DNA of 62,512 nucleotides, filler included, from Kipferlia bialata (Eukaryota): assembly GCA_003568945.1 (NCBI GenBank). It is 5 parts of 5 records of this genome, joined end to end, with 100 filler letters (N's around TTAATTAATTAA, not from the genome) between each part and the next. Parts side by side here need not be neighbours in the genome. Positions count along the whole stretch, not along the records: positions 14,782 to 34,276 come from BDIP01000419.1; 4 more parts are not named here. The stretch is one strand, 5' to 3'. Positions 14,682 to 42,318 of the stretch are shown here, piece by piece (the stretch's first letter is position 1; the number at the start of each line of letters is the position of its first letter). A model generated the notes under the pieces. It was not told the DNA's origin. It made no database searches and was given only the letters and a program-made list of their open reading frames with translations. The translations under genes and the position numbers were made by a program.

Positions 14682-14781
14682 NNNNNNNNNNNNNNNNNNN
14701 NNNNNNNNNNNNNNNNNNNNNNNNNTTAATTAATTAANNNNNNNNNNNNNNNNNNNNNNNNNNNNNNNNNNNNNNNNNNNN
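14682..14781. other. Artificial contig spacer N44-TTAATTAATTAA-N44
   Basis: 100-nt N block centred on a six-frame stop linker. It is identical at four places in the window. Confidence 0.97.
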
Positions 14782-27053: not shown

Positions 27054-27457
27054 AGTGTGTAGAGAGAGAGAGAGAGAATTTGAGTGTGCGACGAGGAAGC
27101 AGTAGTGTGTGTGGGAGTGACATTGGTGGGATCTGCTCTCATACATGTGTTTGTATAGTTTTATATATGGTAACTAGATACACATGTATCAGGGAACAAT
27201 AGAAGGTGTTCAATTTGATAGTCCCAAAGGATCTCTCTATTACACACACCAGTCCCACATGACTCAGTCCCCCTCCCTCCTACTAGCGTAGACACTGCCT
27301 CAAGGGTCCAGTGGAACAGAGAGAGAACGAGACGTAGATTAGTTCCAAATCACCCTATCCCCCTCCCTCTCCAGGAATGCCCCCTCGACCAAGTGTTCAA
27401 GGGCAGCCTTAAGGGTCTAGCAGTAGAGAGAGAGAGAGAGAGAGAGTAAGAGATATC

Positions 27458-30400
27458 CTAGTCCCATATGACTCTGTCCCCCTCCCTCTCCAGGAATGCC
27501 CCCTCGACCAAGTGTTCTAGGGCAGCCTTGAAGTGGTCGTCAGAGAGTGCACACACACTCTCTCTCTCTGCACCCTCTGTACCAATATCACCACTGTTAC
27601 CAATGTTGACACCAATTAGTCTCTCTCTCTCCACCCACAGCCCCTGCACCCTCTGTCTGAGTACTGCTATGGACACACCCTCAGGGCTCTGCTTGACTGC
27701 CTTGCAGACAAGGGCACGGACTAGCTGCTGCACATCCACTAGGGGTCTAGAAGACACAGTAAGAGAGTCACTTCCTGTTGATGCTACACCCTTAGTCTCT
27801 GAGGGTCTGGCTGTACTGCTCATCACAATGTGAAGGGTCTCAACCTCTCCCTCCACCTCTCCCTCTAGCAGTGAGGACACCTCGCTCTCCTCTGCCTCAC
27901 TCTCTCTCTCTCTCTCTGTGCCCTCTACCCCATCACACATGACTACATCTGTATCCACTCCCCATCTGACACCAAAGGTCAGTGGGGTCAGGGAGATAGA
28001 GGACAGACCCCTAGGGTGCACAGTGAGTGTACCACGCTCCCTATCCCAGTTGATGAGAGATGGTCCCTCCCCAGACCCTGTCAGTGGCAGTATATGTGCA
28101 GAGAGAGTCTCTGGTGATACCCCTACGGTAGCATCGCGTAGCTTGGCAGCAGTGACACACTGGCCTGGCTGGGATAGCATGTATGTCATCACAGCATGTT
28201 GCAAGGGTGTCAGTCGCACTGTGTGTGTGGTTGTGGTGGTATCCCCTACTGCCATCTCCACTGATAGTGTCCCACTTACAGTGCTGCTAGAGACATGTAC
28301 TGGTGTAGTGGACCTTCTACCCTTCTCTCTCTTCATCTCAACGTCTGAAGCGTCTGGAACGTATGAAGCGTCTAAGAGAGTACCCAGGCATCTTGATAAA
28401 GCTACGCTCTCTCTGGATATGGCTGCGACAGCTGAGAGAGCAGGGGTCAGGTGAACTGCGCTCCCACTACCCGTGGTGGTGTCTACACCACTTACACTCT
28501 CTGTCCTATTAACAAATGCGGTGGTTGCCGCTATGTAGGACGGGAGTGGACACGAGACGTTGTTGAAGGGCACACTCACAACGTGGGTATCAGAGACAGA
28601 GACTCTTTGGACAGCACTGTCTCCATGCATACCCTCTCCATCCATCAAGGAACGTATCAGACGTCGGGCACTCTGTACAAGGGCCAAGACACTCACCCCA
28701 TCCCTCTCTCCCTCTCTCACTGAAGTAGGGGTGTCTCTCTCCGGTGCCAGTGCGAGTAATGCCACTTCAGTGTCAAGGGACACAGTCTGTGGTCTGGATA
28801 GATAGGCAACCCTTCTCCCTCTGCCTGTTGTGGTTGTTCTCTCTAGCACCATGCTGTGCATGTAGTCAAGGTACCTAGAGTGAGTATAGTAGTAGAGAAA
28901 AGCACATAGATATATATATATGTATATATGTATATATCTGCAATTAGTGTAGCTAGCACCATGCTGTGCATGTAGTCCAGGTACCTAGGGTGAGGGCAAG
29001 TTACATTCACACCAATATAACGTAGTACAGAGGCTGATGAACGAATAATGTACAATGTAGGGAATAACAAACCTAATCTCTAGCAAGCTGCAGTGACACG
29101 TCCAGTCATACACCAAGGGTGCAGTTCCACTCCTAGATGCACTAGTGGTACTGGGGGCTGGTGTCTTGCCCCCCTTCTTCCTCCTCTTTGCCCTCCTCTT
29201 CTCCCTCTCCCTCTCCCGATGCAGAGAGTCCTCGGCCTGGGGTGAGGCCACAAACACGTATAGAGTAAGAAGAGAGAGATAGATATATACATACTACATA
29301 TACATACCTCCACCCCCTCTGCCACCATGTCCTGTATGCACTGCAAACGTACTTACTCACCCTATATACTATATATGTAATATATATTCTATACTCTTCA
29401 TACAACATACACACCTCCACCCCCTGTGCCACCATGTCCTGTATGCACTGCATGATGCCCAGCCAGCCTGGGGTCAGATAGGATACATACGTATATACAC
29501 ATGTATTTTATGTATACTCATACATATATACTTATATATAAATACATATATATTGATATGTATGTATGTCTAGGTGTGAGATGATACTGGCATTCAGTAG
29601 GTATGAAGAGAGAGGATATCCTAACCTTGTATCCCAGCCACCTCCTGTGCCTTGAACACCTGTCTACAGGCAGTGTCCCACATGTAGGCAAGAACCTCTC
29701 CAACTCTATCCCTCTCACTCCCTCTCTCCGTATCTCCCTTGTACACTGTAGACACAACCCTCTTTGCCTCTCTCTCTAGAAGACCTCTCCCCTGAATAGG
29801 AGTCAGGGCAACCCAGGCTAGGGAGAGGATATTGAGGGTCTGGAGGGTTAGATGGTATACTTTCATATTATTATGTATGTGTGAATATATTTGCAGGGTC
29901 ATATGAATACATACGTGTCATGCGCCACTGTATAAGAGTAAGAATATGCACTACTCCTCTATATGTCATGTACCTGTAACACACGTGTGGGTATGTACCA
30001 CCCATATTCCTTGACACTCTCTCCCTCCCCCTCTGTCTGTGTCACAGTGTATCTGACACAGGGTCTGTCCATCCTGGGTTCAGTGGCATATATGCACATC
30101 ATTATACAATAGATATATGATAGTTAAGTTGTACCCTCACTGCTACAGCGGTGGTTAATGGACCCACACCTACATATGACATATAGATCAATGTGTCCCA
30201 TACCTCCCCCTCACTGCTGCACAGAGTGTCTCCCTGGCATCCTGCACCACAGTACTCTCTCCCTCTCCCTCTCCTTCTCCCTCTGTCTCTAAACCTGATA
30301 GAGCACTAGCAGCAGTGTCAAATAGAGAGGCAGCGGCACTGGATGTAAGAGACTGACGAATTACTACAAGGGGTTGATTTGTAAATTCTGATGTATATAT

Positions 30401-30846
30401 TTACCCATATACTTCCAGGAATACATACTCCTATCCCACCTGAATGCCGTGTGGTCCGGGAAGACAGAATAAAGTGTATAAGGCCATGTAATGAACTCAC
30501 ATACATTCAATATGTATATTCCCATATTAAATATATCTATGTATACCTGAATGCCGTGTGGTCTGGGAAGACAGAGGAACCCAATGCGGCATCCAGAACC
30601 TGTAATGAGTGTGATAGTAGTATATATGTATATTACATGTATAATGAGGTTTAGAATGTGACAGATATAACCAGAGCGGCATCCAGAACCAAATAATGAG
30701 AGTAGGGGGGATGTGCTATATGTTCAGTATATATACACATATATACTAAACGCACTATGTACACTATATATGCATGGTACCTCAGGCATCACCGCCACGC
30801 ATGCCTGCATCACAGACATATACTACATATGAATACTTAGGTATAC

Positions 30847-30889
<43 letters not shown>

Positions 30890-32243
30890 TATACCTCAGG
30901 CATCACCGCCACGCATGCCTGCATGACTAGACCTGCAATGGAGACAGACAGGCGCTGGAAGGTGTCCTAGTATGAGGAGAGAGAGAGACAGAGAACGATA
31001 CAGACGCGTGGTGATTACTATTAGGGGAGAGAAAGAGAGAGAGAGAGACAGAGAAAAATACAGGTGCAAGGTGTGGTATGATGTGGAGAGGTTTCTATAG
31101 TGCGCACCATATTCAGTAGACACACATGTAAGCATACACCTTATTTCTGTTAATACCTGTATATAATATATATATGTATATAATACATATATGAATATAT
31201 ATATATATACCTTGTTACTATTCCTCAGTGATGTCTTCCTGACATATGGCTGCACTGCCTGTGGGTATATATATATATATAATATACCTATACAATTATT
31301 GTATACCTATACAATTACCTATACCAATCTATATATACATACCTTATTACTGTTTCTGAGTGATGCCTTCCTGACATATGGCTGCACTGCTAATGGATCC
31401 ACCAACAGCAGTCTCCTCAGTGCCAGGTGGTGACTCTTGATGGCACTCACAAGCAGAGTCTCTCTCTCTCCCTCTGTAAAGGATGTCTCTCTCTCTCTCT
31501 CTCCCTCTGTATTGTCTGTATTGTCTCCCACTGGATCTATCCTGCACCTCTTTGATAGGGCTGTGGATAGGGACTGGGCCTTCCTTGGGGTCAAAGGGAT
31601 TTATAGTAATGTGTATGCATGAAGTAATAGTGCCACTCTGACCACGGTGTCACCGAGACTACTCACTATCCATGTATATACATGTATAGCATAACATGTA
31701 TATATACATATCATACCTTGGGTGTAATAACAGTCCAATCCTTATTATTGCCCTGACCAGGGTGTCACCATGTACATGTATATACAATATGAATATGTAT
31801 AGTACCTTGGATGAAGCAATAGTGCTATCCTTATTATTGCCCTGACCAGGGTGTCACCATGTACATGTACATATATATATGAACAGTGAATGATACATTG
31901 CTATTAGTATAGTACCTTGGATGCAATAGCAGTCCAATCCTAATTATTGCCCTGACCAGAGTGTCACCATGAGACCCAGGCATAGGGACAGACCTCTGGG
32001 TACCATCATCTCTGCACACTAGCCTACCACCAAGGCCGAAACAGGGTGTGCCAGTAGAGAAACTAGAGGACCCTCTATCGCTAGAGGGTTTAGATGCACT
32101 AGATTCACTGACTATGCCTGGAAAAGAACTGGAGGAGGAACTAGACCCTTTAGCACTGACTATGCCGGGTACACTCTCCATCAGACCGGTCAGCCACTTG
32201 GTACGGGCATTGCGAATGATATAGGAAGCAACACACACTTGGG

Positions 32244-32280
<37 letters not shown>

Positions 32281-32803
32281 GGTGACACATTCTGGACAAT
32301 AACATCCACATAGAAAGACATATCTAGTAGGGTATTCAATACGATAACTGTGTGTATCTGCCTATGAAACTCCAGTTGGTATCTCGAATCGAACATGAGT
32401 ATATACATAACTAGATCACATACATCAAATACAACAATATCTCAATTTACTTGAGGGTTACCTATCAGTTCCAGCTGGTGCCTGGAGTACTCGTCTGTGT
32501 AGCTATGGGTGAAGTGGTACATCTCTGCCCTCATGGCCGCATGCTCAACCTGGGAGTAAGGGTGTAGAGGGGGAGAGAGAGAAAAAGAGAGGGAGAGAGA
32601 GAGAGTAGTGTACATCTCAGACCGCATGGCGGCATGCTCAACCTGAGAGTGAGGGTATATATTGATATATGTATATATATATATATATGTATAGAGAGAG
32701 AGAGAGAGTTGGGTACATCTCTGCCCTCATGGCAGCATGCTCAACCTGAGAATAAGGGTATATATATATATATATATATGTATGTATATAGATATATATA
32801 CAT

Positions 32804-32835
<32 letters not shown>

Positions 32836-34039
32836 TAGTGTACATCTCTGCCCTCATGGCAGCATGCTCAACCTGAGAATAAAGGGTGTAGAGGGGGAGA
32901 GAGAGAGACAATGTGACAGAGACAATGAGAGAGGGAGAGAGAGTGGTGATAGTACCTCCCCCATCATGGACCGTGTCGGATATGGCTCAGAGTGGATGAG
33001 GTACCTTGGCATGAGTAATGGCGTGATATAGAGAGAGACAGTGAGAGGTAACGAGAGAGGATATGGCAAAGAGAGTGGCTGAGGCACCTGGGATGGGAAA
33101 AGAGTGGATAGGGAGAGAAAGAGATATAGATAGAAGGAGAGAGAGGCTCAGAGTGGATCTTGTACCTATGTGAGACATACTTGAGAAGGGAGAAGAAGAA
33201 GAAGAGAGAGAAAGGATAGGGCTATGAGTGGATGATGAAAGGGGGGGGGGGGGGGGAGGTGAGGGGGGGTATACTCACAGATATATACATACAGATACAT
33301 ACCCGAAGACTACAAGATACAGGGGCATTACACAGTCCAATGATCGTGCCATGGTCAATAGGGACTGGGTGGAACATGAACCAGGGGTGCTGGAGGCTAA
33401 AGATGAGAGAGACTCTCTCAGATAGAGGGGGGGAGGGGGGGGGAGAGAGAGGGTGAGAAATGGAATTCGATAAACTAGAATTGGAGGAAGAGGAGTGGGG
33501 GGTAATGAACTTGTGTCAGAACTGGATATGCGGTAGACGGGGGAGGGGGAGGGGAGGGGGGGGGGGGTTAAAGTATAATCATACACCCACCTGCTATCTG
33601 TGGAATAATTGTCCCCCTCAGATAGACCCTGAGCACATGTTCATAGGAGAGGGGCACTGTACCCCCACCATCTTTCATACCCCTCTGCACACAGAACATG
33701 GGTAAGTCCCTGACTATAGATACGGTCTGGGCAGTGAGGCTGGACAGTCTGGACATGTCTACAGGGACTCTCTCTCTCTCTCCCTCCTTTCCCTCTGCAT
33801 CTGGGGTATCCTTGGAGCTGTGTGCCTGTAGAGCTGCCTTGATCAGGCTCTTGAGACCCTTGCGGTGGGACCTGGTGTCATGTATATATGTAGTATATAC
33901 AGCACAGAGAATATCACCATATAGATATATACTTCACACTGTGGAGTACCACACACCTTATATCTGGCACTGCGTTGAGCTGGTCTACTAGAGTGTGCAC
34001 ATCGGGTTCTAGGTGCTCTGAGGGTGAGGAATGAGCCAT
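27458..34039 (-). CDS. Large multi-exon protein with a cullin-like C-terminus (divergent cullin/APC2-like)
   Basis: The long last exon (27458-28872) has VRLTPLQHAVMTY, LVRALVCKAVKQ and FKAALEHLVEGAFLEREGDRVIWD*. These resemble cullin VSTYQMAVL, IDAAIVRIMK and IESLIEREYLER. Many upstream GT-AG exons extend to about 34039; the start is uncertain. Confidence 0.6.
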
Positions 34040-34276: not shown

Positions 34277-34376
34277 NNNNNNNNNNNNNNNNNNNNNNNN
34301 NNNNNNNNNNNNNNNNNNNNTTAATTAATTAANNNNNNNNNNNNNNNNNNNNNNNNNNNNNNNNNNNNNNNNNNNN
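34277..34376. other. Artificial contig spacer
   Basis: N44-TTAATTAATTAA-N44. Confidence 0.97.
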
Positions 34377-35369: not shown

Positions 35370-35538
35370 CATGAATACATATATATACATACCTCTCATT
35401 GGGTGGCAGTGGCTCCTGCTCTGCTATGGCCAGTTTGTATGTATATCTCTCTATATATATATATATATCTATATATATATATATATATACCTCTCATTGG
35501 GTGGCAGTGGGGTCCTGCTCTGCTATGGCCAGTCGGTC

Positions 35539-35590
<52 letters not shown>

Positions 35591-36919
35591 CATATAATTA
35601 CATGTTTATACATACCTCTCATTAGGTGGCAGTGGCTCCTGCTCTGCTATGGCCAGTCTGTCTGCATCTCTCTCTCTCTCTATATATATATATGAATACA
35701 TATATATACATACATATATATATACATACCTCTCATTGGGTGGCAGAGGCTCCTGCTCTGCTATGGCCAGTCTGTCTGCATACATGGCAGCTATCTGCTC
35801 AGGGGTCTGGTTACGAAGACACAGCCTATAATTAGGAGATGTAGCAGAGAGAGAGAGAGAGAGAGAGGGGGAGAGAGAGCTGCATACACATGTCGGCTAT
35901 ATTCTCAGGGGTCTGGTTACACAGACATAATACATAATGAGAGGAAGGCGGAAATACAAGGATATAGAGGGAAGAGGGGAGGTGCAGTAAATGCACATGA
36001 CAGCATAGACAAACGCATTGAGAGAAAGACAGATGAGGGCGAGATGGAGATTGAGATGCATATGTAGGTATGCTAAGGGGGAGGAAGGGGGTGATGTGGG
36101 GATGCAGGGGTGTGTGGGTGTGGGTGATAGAGAGAGAGAGAGAGGTGAACACATAGCCACTGGGATGTATGTATCGTCTCTCTCTCTCTCTGTATGGGTG
36201 ATGAGTGTTGGAGAGGGAGAAGGGAGTATGTAAATCTCGTGTGTCCAGAATATTGATAGAACAGCAGCACATCAATGCATTCTAGTGGTAACATAGTGTA
36301 TGATAGCGAATACAACGAATGTATGGAGTAGGAGAGAGTAGGAGAGAGAGAGTACCCACCTCTTGCAGCACCATTTGCCAGCATAGGATGGGCCAGACTT
36401 CTTCTGCTTCTCGGGCTTCACATCCACCTCAGCCTCTGTCTTGACCTCCTCTGGCTTGAACTCTCTCTCTCTCTCAGCCTCTCCCACCCCTGGAACCATC
36501 TCAGTCTCAGGGGCCTTCTTCTCTCCCTCTCCCTCTGCCTCTCCCTCTCTCTCCTTGACTAGCACCACCTGCTCCTCAGCAGTTTCAGCCACAGCAGTCT
36601 CTCCGGCCTCAGGCGCTGGCTGCTCTCCCTCTCCCCCTGCACCAACACCCTCCACCTCCTCTCTCTCTCCTGAGGGTATCATATCAGTATCGGCACCAGC
36701 CTCTCCCAGTGCACCAGCAGAGAGAGTACCATCTCCAGAGGTGGCAGGAGGCTCCCCTGTCTCAGGGTGTGCATGGGTAGGTGTGGGTGCACCCAAGCCA
36801 GACAGGCTGATCACAAGGGGTGCGACAGTGGTGCCCCCAGACTCAGAGGCAGCTGGGGCCTTGGAGACACCGGGGGCCGCGGAGCCTTGCTCCTCAGGCC
36901 TTCCCTGGGCCTCGGACAT
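34377..36919 (-). CDS. Hypothetical protein (3' truncated), acidic N-terminus followed by one CC-x-C module
   Basis: The first exon runs from ATG 36919 to ...[12 protein letters not shown]. Later exons give [62 protein letters not shown]. One small linking exon was not resolved. Confidence 0.6.
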
Positions 36920-37702
36920 TCCAGTCTGCTATCAAGTGTATTACAATACAGACCAGGCTTGGCGTGGGGGGCTGACAGAGAGTGTACACGCTCAATGGGC
37001 TGGACAGCTGGAGTTTTTGACCTAGTTGGTCTGCACCCTTTCTGCATTGAGCGACAGCTGCCATGCTATCTTGCAATCACCGTCAGTTTAGGGGGAAAGC
37101 ATTACTTCACAGCACTAACAACCTCCATAGGAGTACCAGTTACTTGGGTGGTACACTTGGGTGCTTTTTGACTGGCGAAGGAGCGTTTCTCAGGTATTCA
37201 AATCAAATTGTCTTGCTGTTATGTTGTTTCTGGGTCCTTCGGGATGGGTGTAACGTTGTACCGGACGTATATTGATGATGATGTTGTTATAGCTCGTCAA
37301 TGAACGGCTGGATGAGAATTGGATGAGTGTTATGGGTTGTGATGGGTGTCGACCTATTCCTCTTCTGTCCTCTCTTACCAGTACCGTTGTGGTGTTTATA
37401 ATGTGGTAAAGGCCAGTATCTAGTGGCTGTCTCCGTATATCGTATATGCGGTCGAAGGAGAGGGAGGTGGTGGATGGAAGGGGGCGGTGTATATATATGC
37501 ATATTGTCTTGTGATGTGAGCATTGGGGGTCACGTGTCTCATATCAACGTATACGTGCCACGCAAGCACATATTTGCGGTGTGTGTAGCAATATACCTAT
37601 ACTTGTGAGGGTTAATGCCACACCCCCCCCCTCCCCTCTTTCCAGGTCTCTCTCTCTCTCTCTCTTCTAATAGATTCGATGACTGCTGCTGACTGTAGGC
37701 AT

Positions 37703-40700
37703 ATGGACGGAGGGTCGCGTGCCCCTGCCAGAGGGTGGGAGAGAGGCGCCCAGAGAGCACCACAATCCAGTCGAGACACAGAGACTGCGTGGAGGAGGGA
37801 GAGGGAGAGGTACTCTCAGTCGGGTCCAGAGACCAAGGACCGGAGCCTCGACGCCTACCGGGACAGGCTGAGAGAGAGACAGAGGGAGAAGCAGCAAGAG
37901 GCACCACCCCCTGCGCCTGCCCCTGTAGCTGTACAGGAGGATGAGGCCGAGAGCAGTGAGTCTGAGGTGGTACAGTACGTTGCCACCTCGCTGCCTGTTG
38001 CGGCACCTGCATCTGTACAGAGAGTGGTAGAGAGAGGGGGGGAGAGAGGGAGAGACGCTGCTCGTGTTGATGACTACTGGGCCCGGGAGAGAGAGAGAGA
38101 GCAGAGGAGGGGCTATGACTCCAGGGAGTCCTCTTCATATGGCTCCAGTGGCAGATACCCCAGGGAGAGGGAGAGAGATATGGGGAGGAGAGACAGCTGG
38201 GGTAGGCGTCAGGAGTATGACAGGGAGCGGGGTGCCAGTAGCAGGTCCCAGTACCCTGCCTACTCTGACAGCAGTAGGTCTCGCAGGGACGAGTACTCCC
38301 CCAGAGACAGATACCCTCGGGAGAGGTACGATGAGCGTACCTCTCGCCCTGCCTATAGGAGTCAGCCCTCTGACTACTATGACCGGCATCCCCAGGGCAG
38401 GGTCGTGGAGAGAGACCCCTACCCCAGGGAGAGGTCTAGACCAGTGGAGCCTAGGAGGCAGGGCTGGGAGGGCAGTGACCCCAGATCCACAGGGTACCCC
38501 AGGGAGCAGGAGAGGACACAGGTCCGTTACCCTCCCTTCACCACTCCTGCCACGCACCATCATGTCCCTGCACCTGCCCCTGCATATGCATCTCCTGCCT
38601 ATGTCTCCCCTACTGCTGCCCCTCACTCTGTACCCAGGGTGGCCACTGGATGGGGTCTACAGCACCCATCTGCCGCTGTGCATGAGGTGCCCTCAAGGGA
38701 GGCGTCGAGGGAGGTGTCTCCTGCTAAGGAGGCGGGGAGCCGGGATGTATCCCCACTGGCTGTATCTCACCTCATCAGGTTGGTGTATTACAATGATGAA
38801 CTCTATTTGTTCCGATATTCACCTCAGCTCTGGTGTGCACCAGCGTCAGCCCCACTACTCGTCGGCCGCATCTCCCCCCTCCAACCGCCCTGCTGCACGT
38901 CAGCTTGCCCCTTCCCCTCCTAGGCAGGCTGACACCCGCCCTGGTAAGCATGATGTTGACACCCGTCATAGGGTCATGGCCAGTCCGCTCCTTCTGAGCT
39001 CTGAGGATGAGAAGCGTCAGACCAGGGCGGTAAGCCCGTCTCCATCCTCCATCATCACGCCAGGTCAGTGTGCTTTACTGGAAAAGTACGAATAGCTAGA
39101 AGTGTCATATCCCTGTGGCAATCACTCTTATCCCAGCTCGTTCTGATCCAAACTCCAGCAGGGACGCATTGCTTCTAAGGTTAGTACACTGGTTGTGACC
39201 ATACATTCGAGTATTTAACCATTATTGTCGCTAATGAGTCACTCAACTCCAGGGACGTTGCGATGGCTCCCGGAACCAAGGAGAAGCTCGGCAATGAGGA
39301 GGTCGCCAAGACCGGCAAGAGCCTCGTGAGCATGCGCCTTGACAGCCTCAAGAAGAAGAAGGCTCGGGAGAAGAGAGAGAAGGAGAGGAAGCAGCGCGAG
39401 GAGCAGCGCAAGGAGAAGGAGAGAGAGGAGAGAGAGCGGAAGCAGAGAGAGAAGGAGGATCGGGAGAGAGAGGAGAGGCAGAAGGAGCGTGAGCGTCTCA
39501 AGCAGAAGGAGGCAAAGGAGAAGAGAGAGAGAGAAGCCAAGGACATTGACGACCTCCGTCTTAGAGAGGAGCTTAAGAAGAGAGAGCTGAGGATGGAGAA
39601 GGAGCGGGCCCGTGCTGCTGAGAAGAAGAGGGGTCACGATCTGAAGAAGAGATCCGACAAGGAGAAGCGGAGAGAGAAGAAGGAGAGAGAGGAGAGGGAG
39701 AGGAAGAAGGAAGAGGAGATTCGTGCAGAGAAGAAGCGCAAGAGAGCAGAGCGCAAGCGGAAGGAACAGGCGAGACTAGAGCGTCAGATGGAGAGGGAGA
39801 GGTTGGAGGAGGAGGAGAGGGAGAGAAAGGCGGAGAGAGAGAGAGAGAGACAGTTGAGGAGAGAGAGGGAGAGAGATATCGAGATGCAGGAGGACGTGAT
39901 CAGCGAGTCCGAGGAGTCTGAGGAGTCTAGTGAGGGCGTTGACTACGATACCCTCTTCGACACCAAGTGCTGTGCACCTGCCAAGAGAGGGGACGGCGGG
40001 TACGTAAGTGGATAACACACTCTATTTATATATACAAATCTCACCGCTAGCGCCTGTCTTCACCGCACCAGCATGGATGAGCGCCAGGAGCTCACCCAGT
40101 ACATCATGGACATTGACGCCGAAATCAGAACAAGGTTAGTAGTGTATTGTGATGCCAAAATGACGATTATATCATCATTCAACTGTTGTTCCTAGGTACA
40201 TTCCGTTGTATTTACATCATGCTCACTGACAGGGTTGCTGATGGCGAGGGTCCCGAGGTCGGCATCCGTTCTGAGCTCTATCTGCCATTTGTCAGAGAGT
40301 TCTTTGAGGATAGAAACGATCACAGGATGTACTGCGACAAGGTATTGTTCATTATCCACAGATTCTGTGAGCTTCATTGCAGGTACTTATCTTATACCAG
40401 GCTATATCCACGGTCACCGGTCTTCTGCCTGGTGAGGTCCAGAAGATCAGGAACAGGATCAGAAAGGCATGTGTATGTGATATGTACTATTTCTCATGTC
40501 TTGGTCTTCCTCTCACAACCAGGAACGCAGAGCTGGCCGTGTCACAGAGAAGTGGAACCGGAAGCTGCCAGACACTCCTGTCAGGAGGGCATCCAAGCCC
40601 GCCAAGGTTAAGGTTGCTCCAGCTGCTTCAACCCCCAAGGTCACTCCCAAGAAGGCCCCTGTCAAGAAGACTCCTAAGTCTACACCTAAGAAGACCCCCA

Positions 40701-42318
40701 AGACCAAGGCCACTCCTGCTAAGAAGAAGGCACCATCTCTGGCCAAGGCTGTTCGGGAGAAGCAGAAGAAGACAACTTCTAAGGGAGCGTCGAAGGTGTC
40801 TGCTCAGGGCAAGAAGCCGGAGCCTCGGGTATCTAGAGCACAGTCCAAGCGGGAGAGAGAGCCGGCAGAGGAGGAGGAGTCCTCAAGTGAGGGCATCGAC
40901 TACGACACTCTCTTCGACGGAGAGTGCTGCAAGCGTGGGTACGTAGCATGTCATACACATATACGAGACAATATACATAGATATCACGCCCTTGTATTCT
41001 TACTCCAGACGTTGCCTAGTGACCACCCCCCAGCAGGAGAGAGACGCCCTGATCGAGGAGATCCACACCATCGACACCGAGTATGAGGGGATGGACAAGG
41101 AGCACACACAGGCCGTGGAGGCATACATCGCCAAGCACTTTGTGGACAGGAAGGACGAGAAGGTCTACTGCGCCAAGGTAGGAGACTATATCTATTTACC
41201 TTATTATGTGTGCATTGTGTGGTGTGGTATTCTGACCCCAGGCCATCTCCACCATCACTGGTCTCAGGGAGGCACAGACCAAGCTGGTCATCAGGAAGAT
41301 CAACCAGGTACAATATACATATACATTCACATATAGTTGATAGATCAACCTGCCGGGTACAGTGTATGTGTACGATATACTGTTTGGTGTTATATAGATA
41401 GTCTTACATCAGGCCAGCATCCTGGCCTCCAAGCGGAGGAAGAGGACCCCTGCCCAGTCCCACAAGGCGTCTCTTTCTGCCACACCCACCGTCAAGCCTG
41501 CCAGTGTCACTATATCCAGTCCCAAGGACAAGGTTGCTGACACCAATGGTGATGTTGGTGTGAAGAAGGAGCACGCATTGCTAGTTGTCGAGTTCGAGAC
41601 TGAGCCTGCTGCATCACAGCCTGAGAAGCAGAAGGATCATGTTGTGGAGGCTAAGCACAATCCTCCCATGACAGTAGACTCTGCCACACACGGTGACGGC
41701 ACTCTTCTTGTGGACCCCATGGCCACAGAGGACACTGCAAGGCCCAGTGGCGCGACTGTGAGAGCTACTGGCGGCTCATCTCCCGTACTTCATCCTTCAC
41801 ACTCTCAGAACACCAAGGACGTCCCACCAGTCACCGTTGAGCCGGATGTACCAGTTGCCCCATCTCCCCCTGTTGTTCCTACCACTCCCTCTGAGGTCCC
41901 CATGGAGACACTTCAGATGCTGGCTGGTGGTAAGACAGCAGATGGTGACTTCCTCTACCTGTACAAGGGGGACATGGCACCTGAGAGGACAGAGGTGGCA
42001 TCCTGTGTGGAGATACCCCCAGAGGTGCAGAAGTACCTGCCTCAGCCCACAGTCTATCCAGCTCCCTCGGGTACTAGTGTCACTGCTGGTGTTCTTGCTC
42101 TGTCAGGTACTGACTCCTTGGGTGCTAGTGCTGTCTCTAGTGCTGTCAAGGAGGAGAGCAAGCATGGCCCTACAGTGTCAGTCCCAGCTGAGAGGGAGAG
42201 TGAGAGCCCGTCTCTTGGCCAGAAGCGCCCCAGGTCCGTCACACACTCCAAGGCTGCATCATTCAGCCCCATTGGGCCCCACCTGAGACAGGCAAAGAGA
42301 GTGCCAGAGGACCAGTGA
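37703..42318 (+). CDS. Large hypothetical protein: RE/RY-rich N-terminus, K/E/R coiled coil, two CC-x-C modules, histone-H1-like KKTPK linker
   Basis: Long exons joined by short introns. The two internal repeats are DYDTLFDTKCC...ACLHRTSMDERQEL...FVREFFEDRNDHRMYCDK|AISTVTGL and DYDTLFDGECCKRG|RCLVTTPQQERDAL...YIAKHFVDRKDEKVYCAK|AISTITGL. Stop at 42316-42318. Confidence 0.75.

What the first reader, a model, noticed from the sequence alone, without database searches (positions are those of the whole stretch)
31618..31971. Three different synonymous spellings of one exon end in tandem
Seen on the - strand: HGDTLVRAIIRIGLLLHP|GT occurs at 31971-31916, 31861-31806 and 31772-31717, with a degraded fourth copy near 31620-31653. 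The LLLH codons read CTG CTA TTG CAT, then CTA TTG CTT CAT, then CTG TTA TTA CAC. The only replacement among the three copies is G>A in the middle one. Three independent silent versions are hard to explain by merging two alleles of a diploid. They suggest serial episodes in which each copy was under coding constraint, or polyploid or population-level donors.
Basis: seen in the sequence. Interest (0 to 1): 0.75.

Follow-up and report, generated by a model that had tools for sequence, protein, structure and literature searches.

The report
Fossil alleles stacked inside introns
In the protist Kipferlia bialata, about a quarter of the exon ends examined have spare copies in the neighbouring intron that differ from the working copy mostly by silent changes; these are likely gene variants captured from other lineages by recombination, which would make one genome a record of sex in a group where sex has not been seen.

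Summary
The three copies and a decayed fourth lie in one 332-nt GT-AG intron of K. bialata KIPB_002496. A transcript-like contig splices only copy 1. DNA contigs show single-copy depth, a two-fold shared 43-mer and no variant letters, so this is not merged haplotypes. It is one case of a window-wide pattern: 106 spare copies at 70 of 283 exon ends, on donor and acceptor sides and at one stop codon. Spares cannot be translated, yet dN/dS is 0.12-0.21, also between spares (0.16-0.25); single-lineage duplication models give 0.49 or more. Similarity stops at the splice site, divergence is nearly uniform, codon choice is symmetric, and farther spares are more decayed. Best reading (inferred): repeated capture of divergent alleles by recombination that pairs only in exons and ends by end-joining in the intron. 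No second strain was found to test this. The scan had noted F7-type splice-junction minisatellites in other genomes, nothing in this one; my literature searches found no description.

The parts
31916..32237 (-). Working exon of KIPB_002496 (hypothetical protein, 1119 aa)
   Evidence: X2 contig 9 covers it; translation found in P0122
31916..31971 (-). Copy 1: the exon end that is spliced (Gly spelling)
   Evidence: joint skipping 332 nt starts at its GT
31584..31915 (-). 332-nt GT-AG intron holding copies 2-4
   Evidence: table 5 (cut +1)
31862..31915 (-). Spacer 1 (54 nt): working donor plus TA-rich tract
   Evidence: sequence; on X1 record 6, depth 435
31806..31861 (-). Copy 2: spare exon end, Ala spelling, own GT; first 33 nt identical to copy 3
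31773..31805 (-). Spacer 2 (33 nt)
   Evidence: on X1 record 5, depth 437
31717..31772 (-). Copy 3: spare exon end, Gly spelling, 5 silent differences from copy 1, own GT with a different intron start
31616..31659 (-). Copy 4: oldest-looking spare, Ala spelling, 12-nt in-frame gap, donor lost
   Evidence: not found by the ungapped search; most of it lies in a hole of X1 cover
31343..31583 (-). Next working exon
31211..31258 (-). Spare of the next exon's end (4 silent, 1 replacement), flanked by AG and GT, skipped in the transcript contig
   Evidence: loose end of X2 at 31342 continues with sequence from about 30968
32610..32872 (-). Acceptor-side array: three spare exon starts upstream of the working acceptor at 32549
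   Evidence: X2 exon piece ends at 32551
27251..27410 (-). Two spares of the gene's coding end behind the stop codon (5 silent and 1 replacement in the nearer one, stop respelled TAG to TAA)
15435..15967 (-). Largest acceptor-side array: working exon start plus five spares (RPF1-like gene, name recalled from motifs)

Best explanation
The intronic copies are likely displaced alleles: a break inside an exon, near its end, would be repaired by copying the exon end, splice site and about 70 nt of intron from a divergent homologous chromosome, and then joined back end-to-end to the old exon end, which is left behind in the intron. Shown: the array is real; only copy 1 is seen spliced; the copies diverged as if under coding constraint; similarity mostly stops at the splice site. 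Inferred: alleles differ at about 0.28 per silent site and have unalignable introns, so pairing is possible only in exons; the newest arrival sits in the working position and older ones are pushed into the intron and decay; events spanning a splice site or stop codon are harmless and persist, whereas those inside exons would be purged; unequal exchange between arrays made copy 2 or copy 3 a mosaic. This needs sex or parasex among very diverse lineages. Lack of NHEJ and reliance on Dmc1 paralogs in fornicates is a plausible, untested enabling factor.
For: Real and not split by haplotype: X1 records at depth 435, 437 and 459, the shared 43-mer at 885, no other letters. Pervasive: 106 spares at 70 of 283 ends; 1 of 1415 shuffled introns gave a hit. 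Constraint: dN/dS 0.12-0.21, highest bootstrap bound 0.29; differences by codon position 49/46/173; wrong-frame controls give 2.1-2.4; spare vs spare 0.16-0.25; changes private to one spare 19 silent of 27. At two-fold sites 28 transitions to 3 transversions, against 22 to 48 at four-fold sites, P=2e-8. In exons matching public proteins dN/dS is 0.11. Not translated: 4 of 67 alternative sites give an open in-frame extension; copies 2 and 3 give frameshift and stop. Similarity ends at the splice site: exon identity 0.93, adjacent intron 24-mers 0.45-0.53 against background 0.31-0.35; among near-identical exon copies only 2 of 10 donors and 5 of 15 acceptors beat the background 95th percentile. 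Near-fixed divergence: dispersion 1.15, against 1.74 (1.35-2.15) for exponential ages and 0.94 (0.72-1.17) for a fixed distance. Polarity: nearest spares 38 silent to 14 replacement codons, farthest 25 to 26, P=0.016. Codon preference symmetric, 54 vs 58. Three-state silent sites: 4. Repair background: PMC8516963 passages, PMC6719624 abstract.
Against: No donor allele was seen: two metagenome scans found no Kipferlia-like relative (0 matches; 3 loci at 40% identity), so the alleles are inferred. 21 of 67 spares do keep intron similarity to the working copy above background and one is identical over 24 nt, so some are ordinary local duplications. The near-versus-far test falls to P=0.059 after trimming edges. 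The microhomology test at the joins is biased by alignment extension and inconclusive. A silent divergence of about 0.28 between alleles would be extreme. Weakly scoring spares (score 13-20) show about as many replacement as silent codons, 31 silent to 34. Depth comes from contigs of one sample, possibly the source of the window. The data do not separate this one-step route from the two-step rival.
Confidence: 0.55

Rival explanations
1. Two steps, same donors: ordinary short tandem duplications (about 100 bp) first make identical spares, and later unequal crossing-over or conversion with divergent alleles replaces the spare or the working end together with its intron.
For: Some spares keep matching intron flanks (21 of 67 above background). 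Copies 2 and 3 share one 43-nt junction but differ at 7 positions further 3', and the Gly/Ala spellings group 1+3 against 2+4 while the junction groups 2+3. Unit length is tight, median 104, quartiles 94-114.
Against: Needs exchanges inside targets of median 31 nt at most spares. Differences are spread evenly along the copies (5.6, 9.9, 8.7, 9.4, 8.0% per 10 nt from the splice site), with no conserved distal half.
Confidence: 0.2
2. Donors were homeologous chromosome sets of a hybrid or polyploid ancestor or stage, not a broad population.
For: Divergence is nearly the same for all spares.
Against: No variant letters and no second exon version laid at 90% or more over 1.4 kb. 4 three-state silent sites need more than two donors or later mutation. 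Spares are young, at most about 0.03 substitutions per site of decay.
Confidence: 0.08
3. Exon ends are re-synthesised by a very error-prone process with newly made intron filler, and selection keeps only products with silent errors.
For: Would give silent bias, uniform divergence and unrelated intron starts.
Against: Predicts working codons less preferred than spare codons by 0.62 log units; observed 0.03 +/- 0.10 (assumes uniform errors). Survival would be 0.6% for 31 nt and 0.01% for 56 nt.
Confidence: 0.06
4. Serial tandem duplication, pop-out and conversion within one clonal lineage, with copies swapping roles.
For: Farther spares are more decayed; some arrays have similar spacers.
Against: 30 of 30 simulated settings gave pN/pS 0.49-0.74 against observed dN/dS 0.12-0.21; intron flanks mostly unrelated; too little spread in age. 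The simulation is crude (one 32-site unit).
Confidence: 0.04
5. The spares are used by alternative splicing and are constrained because they are translated.
For: A few spares have both AG and GT and an in-frame length, e.g. 31211-31258. Contigs drop rare forms.
Against: Only 4 of 67 alternative sites give an open in-frame extension; reading to copy 2 or 3 adds 110 or 199 nt with a stop. The one X2 contig uses copy 1 and skips 31211-31258. One spare lies behind a stop codon.
Confidence: 0.03
6. Assembly artefact: haplotypes of a mixed culture laid in tandem.
For: Unit length is close to a short-read length; no listed contig spans the whole array; the spacer-to-copy joins are covered with only 22 letters on the copy side; there is a hole in cover at 31503-31646.
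Against: One unbranched record runs from the exon through copy 1 and spacer 1 into the shared 43-mer at depth 435; a second leaves and re-enters the 43-mer at 437; the 43-mer is at 885; no third-depth branches or variant letters. X1 holds 0.96 of the sampled words of 27500-33500.
Confidence: 0.02

Closest known systems
Splice-junction minisatellites such as the human F7 intron 7 37-bp VNTR (PMC1557585, abstract read)
   Same: Tandem copies of an exon end with its donor lie in the intron; the most upstream donor is the one used.
   Different: F7 repeats are a locus-specific minisatellite whose pseudo-sites are identical in sequence. Here there are 1-5 spares at a quarter of exon ends, on both sides of introns and at a stop codon, with silent-biased differences and mostly unrelated intron flanks.
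Intron gain by tandem or internal gene duplication (Rogers model; PMC3265369 seen as search listing only; internal gene duplication seen only as a cited mechanism in PMC9860276)
   Same: Short intragenic duplications next to splice signals.
   Different: There the duplicated exon sequence becomes a new intron using the first copy's GT and the second copy's AG. Here an existing splice site is duplicated, no new intron is made, and the spare is not a neutral twin.
One-sided invasion, i.e. homologous copying finished by non-homologous joining (title seen only in the reference list of PMC4888836; mechanism recalled)
   Same: Gives a duplication with one copy taken from a donor, a homologous junction on one side and a non-homologous one on the other.
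   Different: Known to me as a minority outcome at induced breaks; here it would have left marks at tens of thousands of exon ends if the window is typical (extrapolation).
Introner elements (PMC9860276, passages; Kipferlia and metamonads not mentioned)
   Same: Genome-wide process that reshapes introns in one lineage.
   Different: Introners are families of similar intron sequences at unrelated sites; here the repeated part is each gene's own exon end.

Membership tests
Splice-junction minisatellite (F7 type) | Repeat unit spans the exon-intron boundary | tested here: met
   32 of 35 donor-anchored spares keep GT and 35 of 38 acceptor-anchored spares keep AG
Splice-junction minisatellite (F7 type) | Only the authentic (first) donor is used | tested here: met
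   X2 joint uses copy 1; one contig, rare forms not visible
Splice-junction minisatellite (F7 type) | Units alike over their whole length, intron part included | tested here: not met
   intron identity 0.45-0.53 next to exon identity 0.93; 46 of 67 not above background
Splice-junction minisatellite (F7 type) | Intronic units diverge without regard to codons | tested here: not met
   spare vs spare dN/dS 0.16-0.25; 19.5 of 30 changes silent with one pair per family, P=3e-6
Intron gain by tandem duplication (Rogers model) | Intron runs from the GT in copy 1 to the AG at the end of copy 2 | tested here: not met
   the acceptor used is a normal branch-plus-AG site at 31584, beyond copy 4
Mutually exclusive or cassette exons | Each copy has its own acceptor and donor and an open frame | tested here: not met
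   copies 2-4 have no acceptor in front; 4 of 67 alternative sites open and in frame
One-sided invasion repair product | One copy and its flank match a donor chromosome | not testable with these tools
   no second strain found
One-sided invasion repair product | Non-homologous or microhomology join at the far end of the spare | tested here: inconclusive
   joins are abrupt; repeat continuation 1.67 nt vs 0.40 at 24 periodic joins, but inflated by alignment extension
Introner elements | Similar intron sequences at unrelated insertion sites | not tested
   only background similarity of 24-nt intron ends was computed

The most novel reading that the evidence does not exclude
K. bialata repairs or recombines its genes against very divergent partners (about 0.28 silent substitutions per site, unalignable introns) so often that a quarter of its exon ends carry stacks of displaced alleles. 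A single, apparently homozygous genome then archives its species' polymorphism in order of arrival and gives direct sequence evidence of recurrent sex or parasex in a metamonad.
Probability: 0.6. Interest if true: 0.9.

Novelty: new variant of a known kind. Interest (0 to 1): 0.78.

Why it matters
[quoted passage not shown] If the spares are captured alleles, they are a footprint of outcrossing readable from one genome, give an estimate of silent diversity without population sampling, and show a route of intron turnover relevant to the debate on whether Kipferlia's 124,912 introns are ancestral (PMC5874029 section 12). They also pose a splicing question: the last of several good-looking acceptors is chosen by a spliceosome reported as reduced (PMC6679479 passages). 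One more isolate would test the whole reading.

Tried and rejected
No whole genome was held, so all counts come from this window. Metagenome scans for another strain: 0 matches to a degenerate pattern of the exon end; 3 loci at 40% identity, not examined further. No run on record as RNA was listed; X2 is a guessed RNA run. Host protein: no Pfam family, no PDB match, atlas unreachable; my impression of a cullin-like C-terminus is recalled and unsupported. Microhomology test biased and inconclusive. Unit lengths modulo 3 (15/23/29) show no excess of in-frame lengths. Hole in X1 cover at 31503-31646 treated as no evidence. Rejected: haplotype merge, translation of spares, single-lineage role swapping, uniform error-prone resynthesis (see rivals). 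Search by sequence in earlier findings gave one unrelated note; by place gave none.

Full report
Observation. The three 56-nt copies are present at the stated coordinates, each ending in AG|GT, with the quoted codons and Gly>Ala as the only amino-acid change. A fourth copy at about 31659-31616 has a 12-nt in-frame gap, three conservative or small replacements and no donor. Copies 2 and 3 share an identical 43-mer (10 nt of spacer plus 33 nt of exon copy) and differ at 7 positions further 3'. Copies 1 and 3 share the Gly spelling, copies 2 and 4 the Ala spelling. The two groupings conflict, so at least one copy is a mosaic.

Organism and gene. A long exon of the same gene matches KIPB_002496 of Kipferlia bialata at 100% over 470 aa; the neighbouring xylulokinase exon matches KIPB_002495 at 90%, the difference being a small intron that my model missed. 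The host protein has no Pfam family and no PDB match.

Real or artefact. Two runs of one sample hold the region. Laid on 31215-32640, the one X2 contig has exons 32551-32462, 32237-31915 and 31582-31342; it skips 332 nt with GT-AG ends, so copy 1 is the working end and copies 2-4 are intronic. Only one of three frames is open across these exons. In X1, record 6 (depth 435) runs unbranched from the exon through copy 1 and spacer 1 into the shared 43-mer, record 5 (437) leaves it through copy 2 and spacer 2 and re-enters it, the 43-mer has depth 885, and the upstream record has 459. No variant letters were listed. Three haplotypes with one copy each would give branches at a third of the depth. 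Limits: the donor-to-spacer joins are bridged by more than 31 letters on both sides, the spacer-to-copy joins by only 22 letters on the copy side; 82 pieces were not shown; 31503-31646 has no X1 cover; X1 may be the source of the window; X2 is RNA only by guess, and contigs drop rare forms.

A window-wide pattern. A self-comparison found 82 local repeat families, most at splice signals. I built 13 gene models with a small HMM trained on long ORFs and curated them by hand. Not modelled: about 19800-21500, 37200-42300, 52600-54900 and 58900-60200; one UBC-like exon was dropped for uncertain boundaries. 27 of 28 exons of three models were found in the two public proteins by whole translation or last 12 residues; the miss matched at its start. 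Searching each exon end against its adjoining intron gave 106 spares at 70 of 283 ends, against 1 hit in 1415 shuffled introns. Median spare length is 31 nt, median identity 0.93, 15 of 106 identical. Adjacent copies are a median of 104 nt apart. On the donor side the working copy is the first, on the acceptor side the last; this assignment is by exon continuity and was checked against X2 for three sites only. One case lies at a stop codon, so the feature follows coding/non-coding borders and not splice sites as such. Density differs between segments: 0 of 30 ends in 53939-60113, P=3.5e-4 across five segments. All 106 hits were kept in the counts; copy 4 was missed by the ungapped search.

The copies diverged under coding constraint. 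dN/dS between working and spare copies is 0.12-0.21 across six settings, highest bootstrap bound 0.29; differences fall 49/46/173 on codon positions 1/2/3; shifted frames give 2.1 and 2.4. With one spare per end, 86 of 126 changes are silent against 40% expected if one copy had been neutral since duplication, P=2e-10. Spare against spare gives 0.16-0.25. At two-fold sites transitions outnumber transversions 28 to 3, while four-fold sites show 22 to 48, so this is not a positional mutation bias. Models matching public proteins give 0.11, those resting on my frames alone 0.15-0.20. The weakest-scoring spares show no clear silent excess at codon level, 31 silent to 34 replacement. Spares cannot owe the bias to translation: 4 of 67 alternative sites give an open in-frame extension.

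Where the constraint came from. In one lineage only one copy works at a time, so a working-spare pair should be at least half neutral. A simulation with duplication, pop-out, conversion and rejection of harmful promotions gave pN/pS 0.49-0.74 in 30 of 30 settings. A local duplication should also copy the intron start, but identity falls from about 90% to about 45-60% just past GT, and 46 of 67 spares have flanks no more alike than random intron ends, including exon copies that are identical. Divergence is close to uniform (dispersion 1.15; 1.74 expected for exponential ages, 0.94 for a fixed distance). Codon preference is symmetric between working and nearest spare copies, 54 vs 58 of 113 sites, unlike an error-prone resynthesis model. 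Nearest spares have fewer replacements than farthest ones (38:14 vs 25:26, P=0.016; P=0.059 after trimming; 24 families). Decay since displacement is at most about 0.03 per site against a silent divergence of 0.28. Four silent sites show three states, one of them in this finding.

Mechanism, inferred. A break falls in an exon some 20-70 nt from its edge. One end invades a divergent homologue, where only exons can pair, and copies through the splice site and about 70 nt of that allele's intron. It is then joined end-to-end, without annealing, to the other end, which still carries the old exon edge. The incoming allele works; the old one becomes intronic. Repeats push older alleles inwards, and unequal exchange makes mosaics such as copies 2 and 3. 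Such events are harmless only when they span a splice site or stop codon, which would explain their position. The close rival reaches the same end by local duplication followed by allelic exchange. Both need outcrossing among very diverse lineages. Published context: metamonads lack NHEJ, fornicates lack Rad51A and have two Dmc1 paralogs, and sex has not been observed (PMC8516963, passages); Dmc1 residues stabilise mismatched heteroduplex (PMC6719624, abstract). I did not test these genes in Kipferlia. No donor allele was seen.

Comparison and novelty. It works like an F7-type splice-junction repeat in that the authentic site wins (PMC1557585, abstract), but fails two tests of that kind: units are not alike in their intron part and do not diverge neutrally. 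It is not Rogers-type intron gain and not alternative exons. The genome paper (PMC5874029: term passages and section 12) has no occurrence of 'duplicat', 'heterozyg' or 'ploid' in its main text and reports the introns without this feature in what I read. PMC6679479 (passages) covers spliceosomal proteins only; PMC9860276 (term search) does not mention Kipferlia. Searches listed no description of the pattern; I saw only their listings, the library lacks most subscription papers, and I read no supplements. Names RPF1, NHE and UBC for neighbouring genes are recalled from motifs and come from no call.

Verdict. A real, pervasive and apparently undescribed feature. The coding-constraint signal is solid; its origin in captured alleles is the best-fitting inference and is directly testable with one more isolate.

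Noticed in passing
window 53939-60113 and 21630-23665: Cold regions: 0 of 30 and 0 of 12 exon ends have spares, and their introns have about half the dinucleotide-repeat content (0.07-0.09 vs mostly 0.13-0.19).
   Followed up: partly
window-wide acceptors, e.g. 31584-31600: The branch-like motif sits within about 10 nt of the AG, and acceptor-side arrays have up to five good-looking spare acceptors upstream of the one predicted to be used.
   Followed up: partly
introns with arrays, e.g. 35380-35730 and 15480-15970: Donor-side spacers tend to read GT-(TA)n-(GA)n and acceptor-side spacers (TC)n-(TA)n-branch-AG, which are complementary and could fold an intron back on itself.
   Followed up: no
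all modelled exons (6121 codons): Codons containing CG are strongly avoided (CGA 0.02, CCG 0.04, TCG 0.05, GCG 0.06).
   Followed up: no
window 21630-23665: Xylulokinase gene whose next-best hits after the Kipferlia protein are at 38-48% identity, the named ones bacterial: possible lateral transfer. The public model KIPB_002495 appears to fuse it with the next gene.
   Followed up: partly
window 31211-31258: 48-nt spare with its own AG and GT, in frame, yet skipped in the transcript contig; a possible route to new cassette exons.
   Followed up: partly
window 14682-14781, 34277-34376, 53839-53938, 60114-60213: N-flanked 12-nt linkers join separate segments, so the window is not one contiguous locus.
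   Followed up: yes
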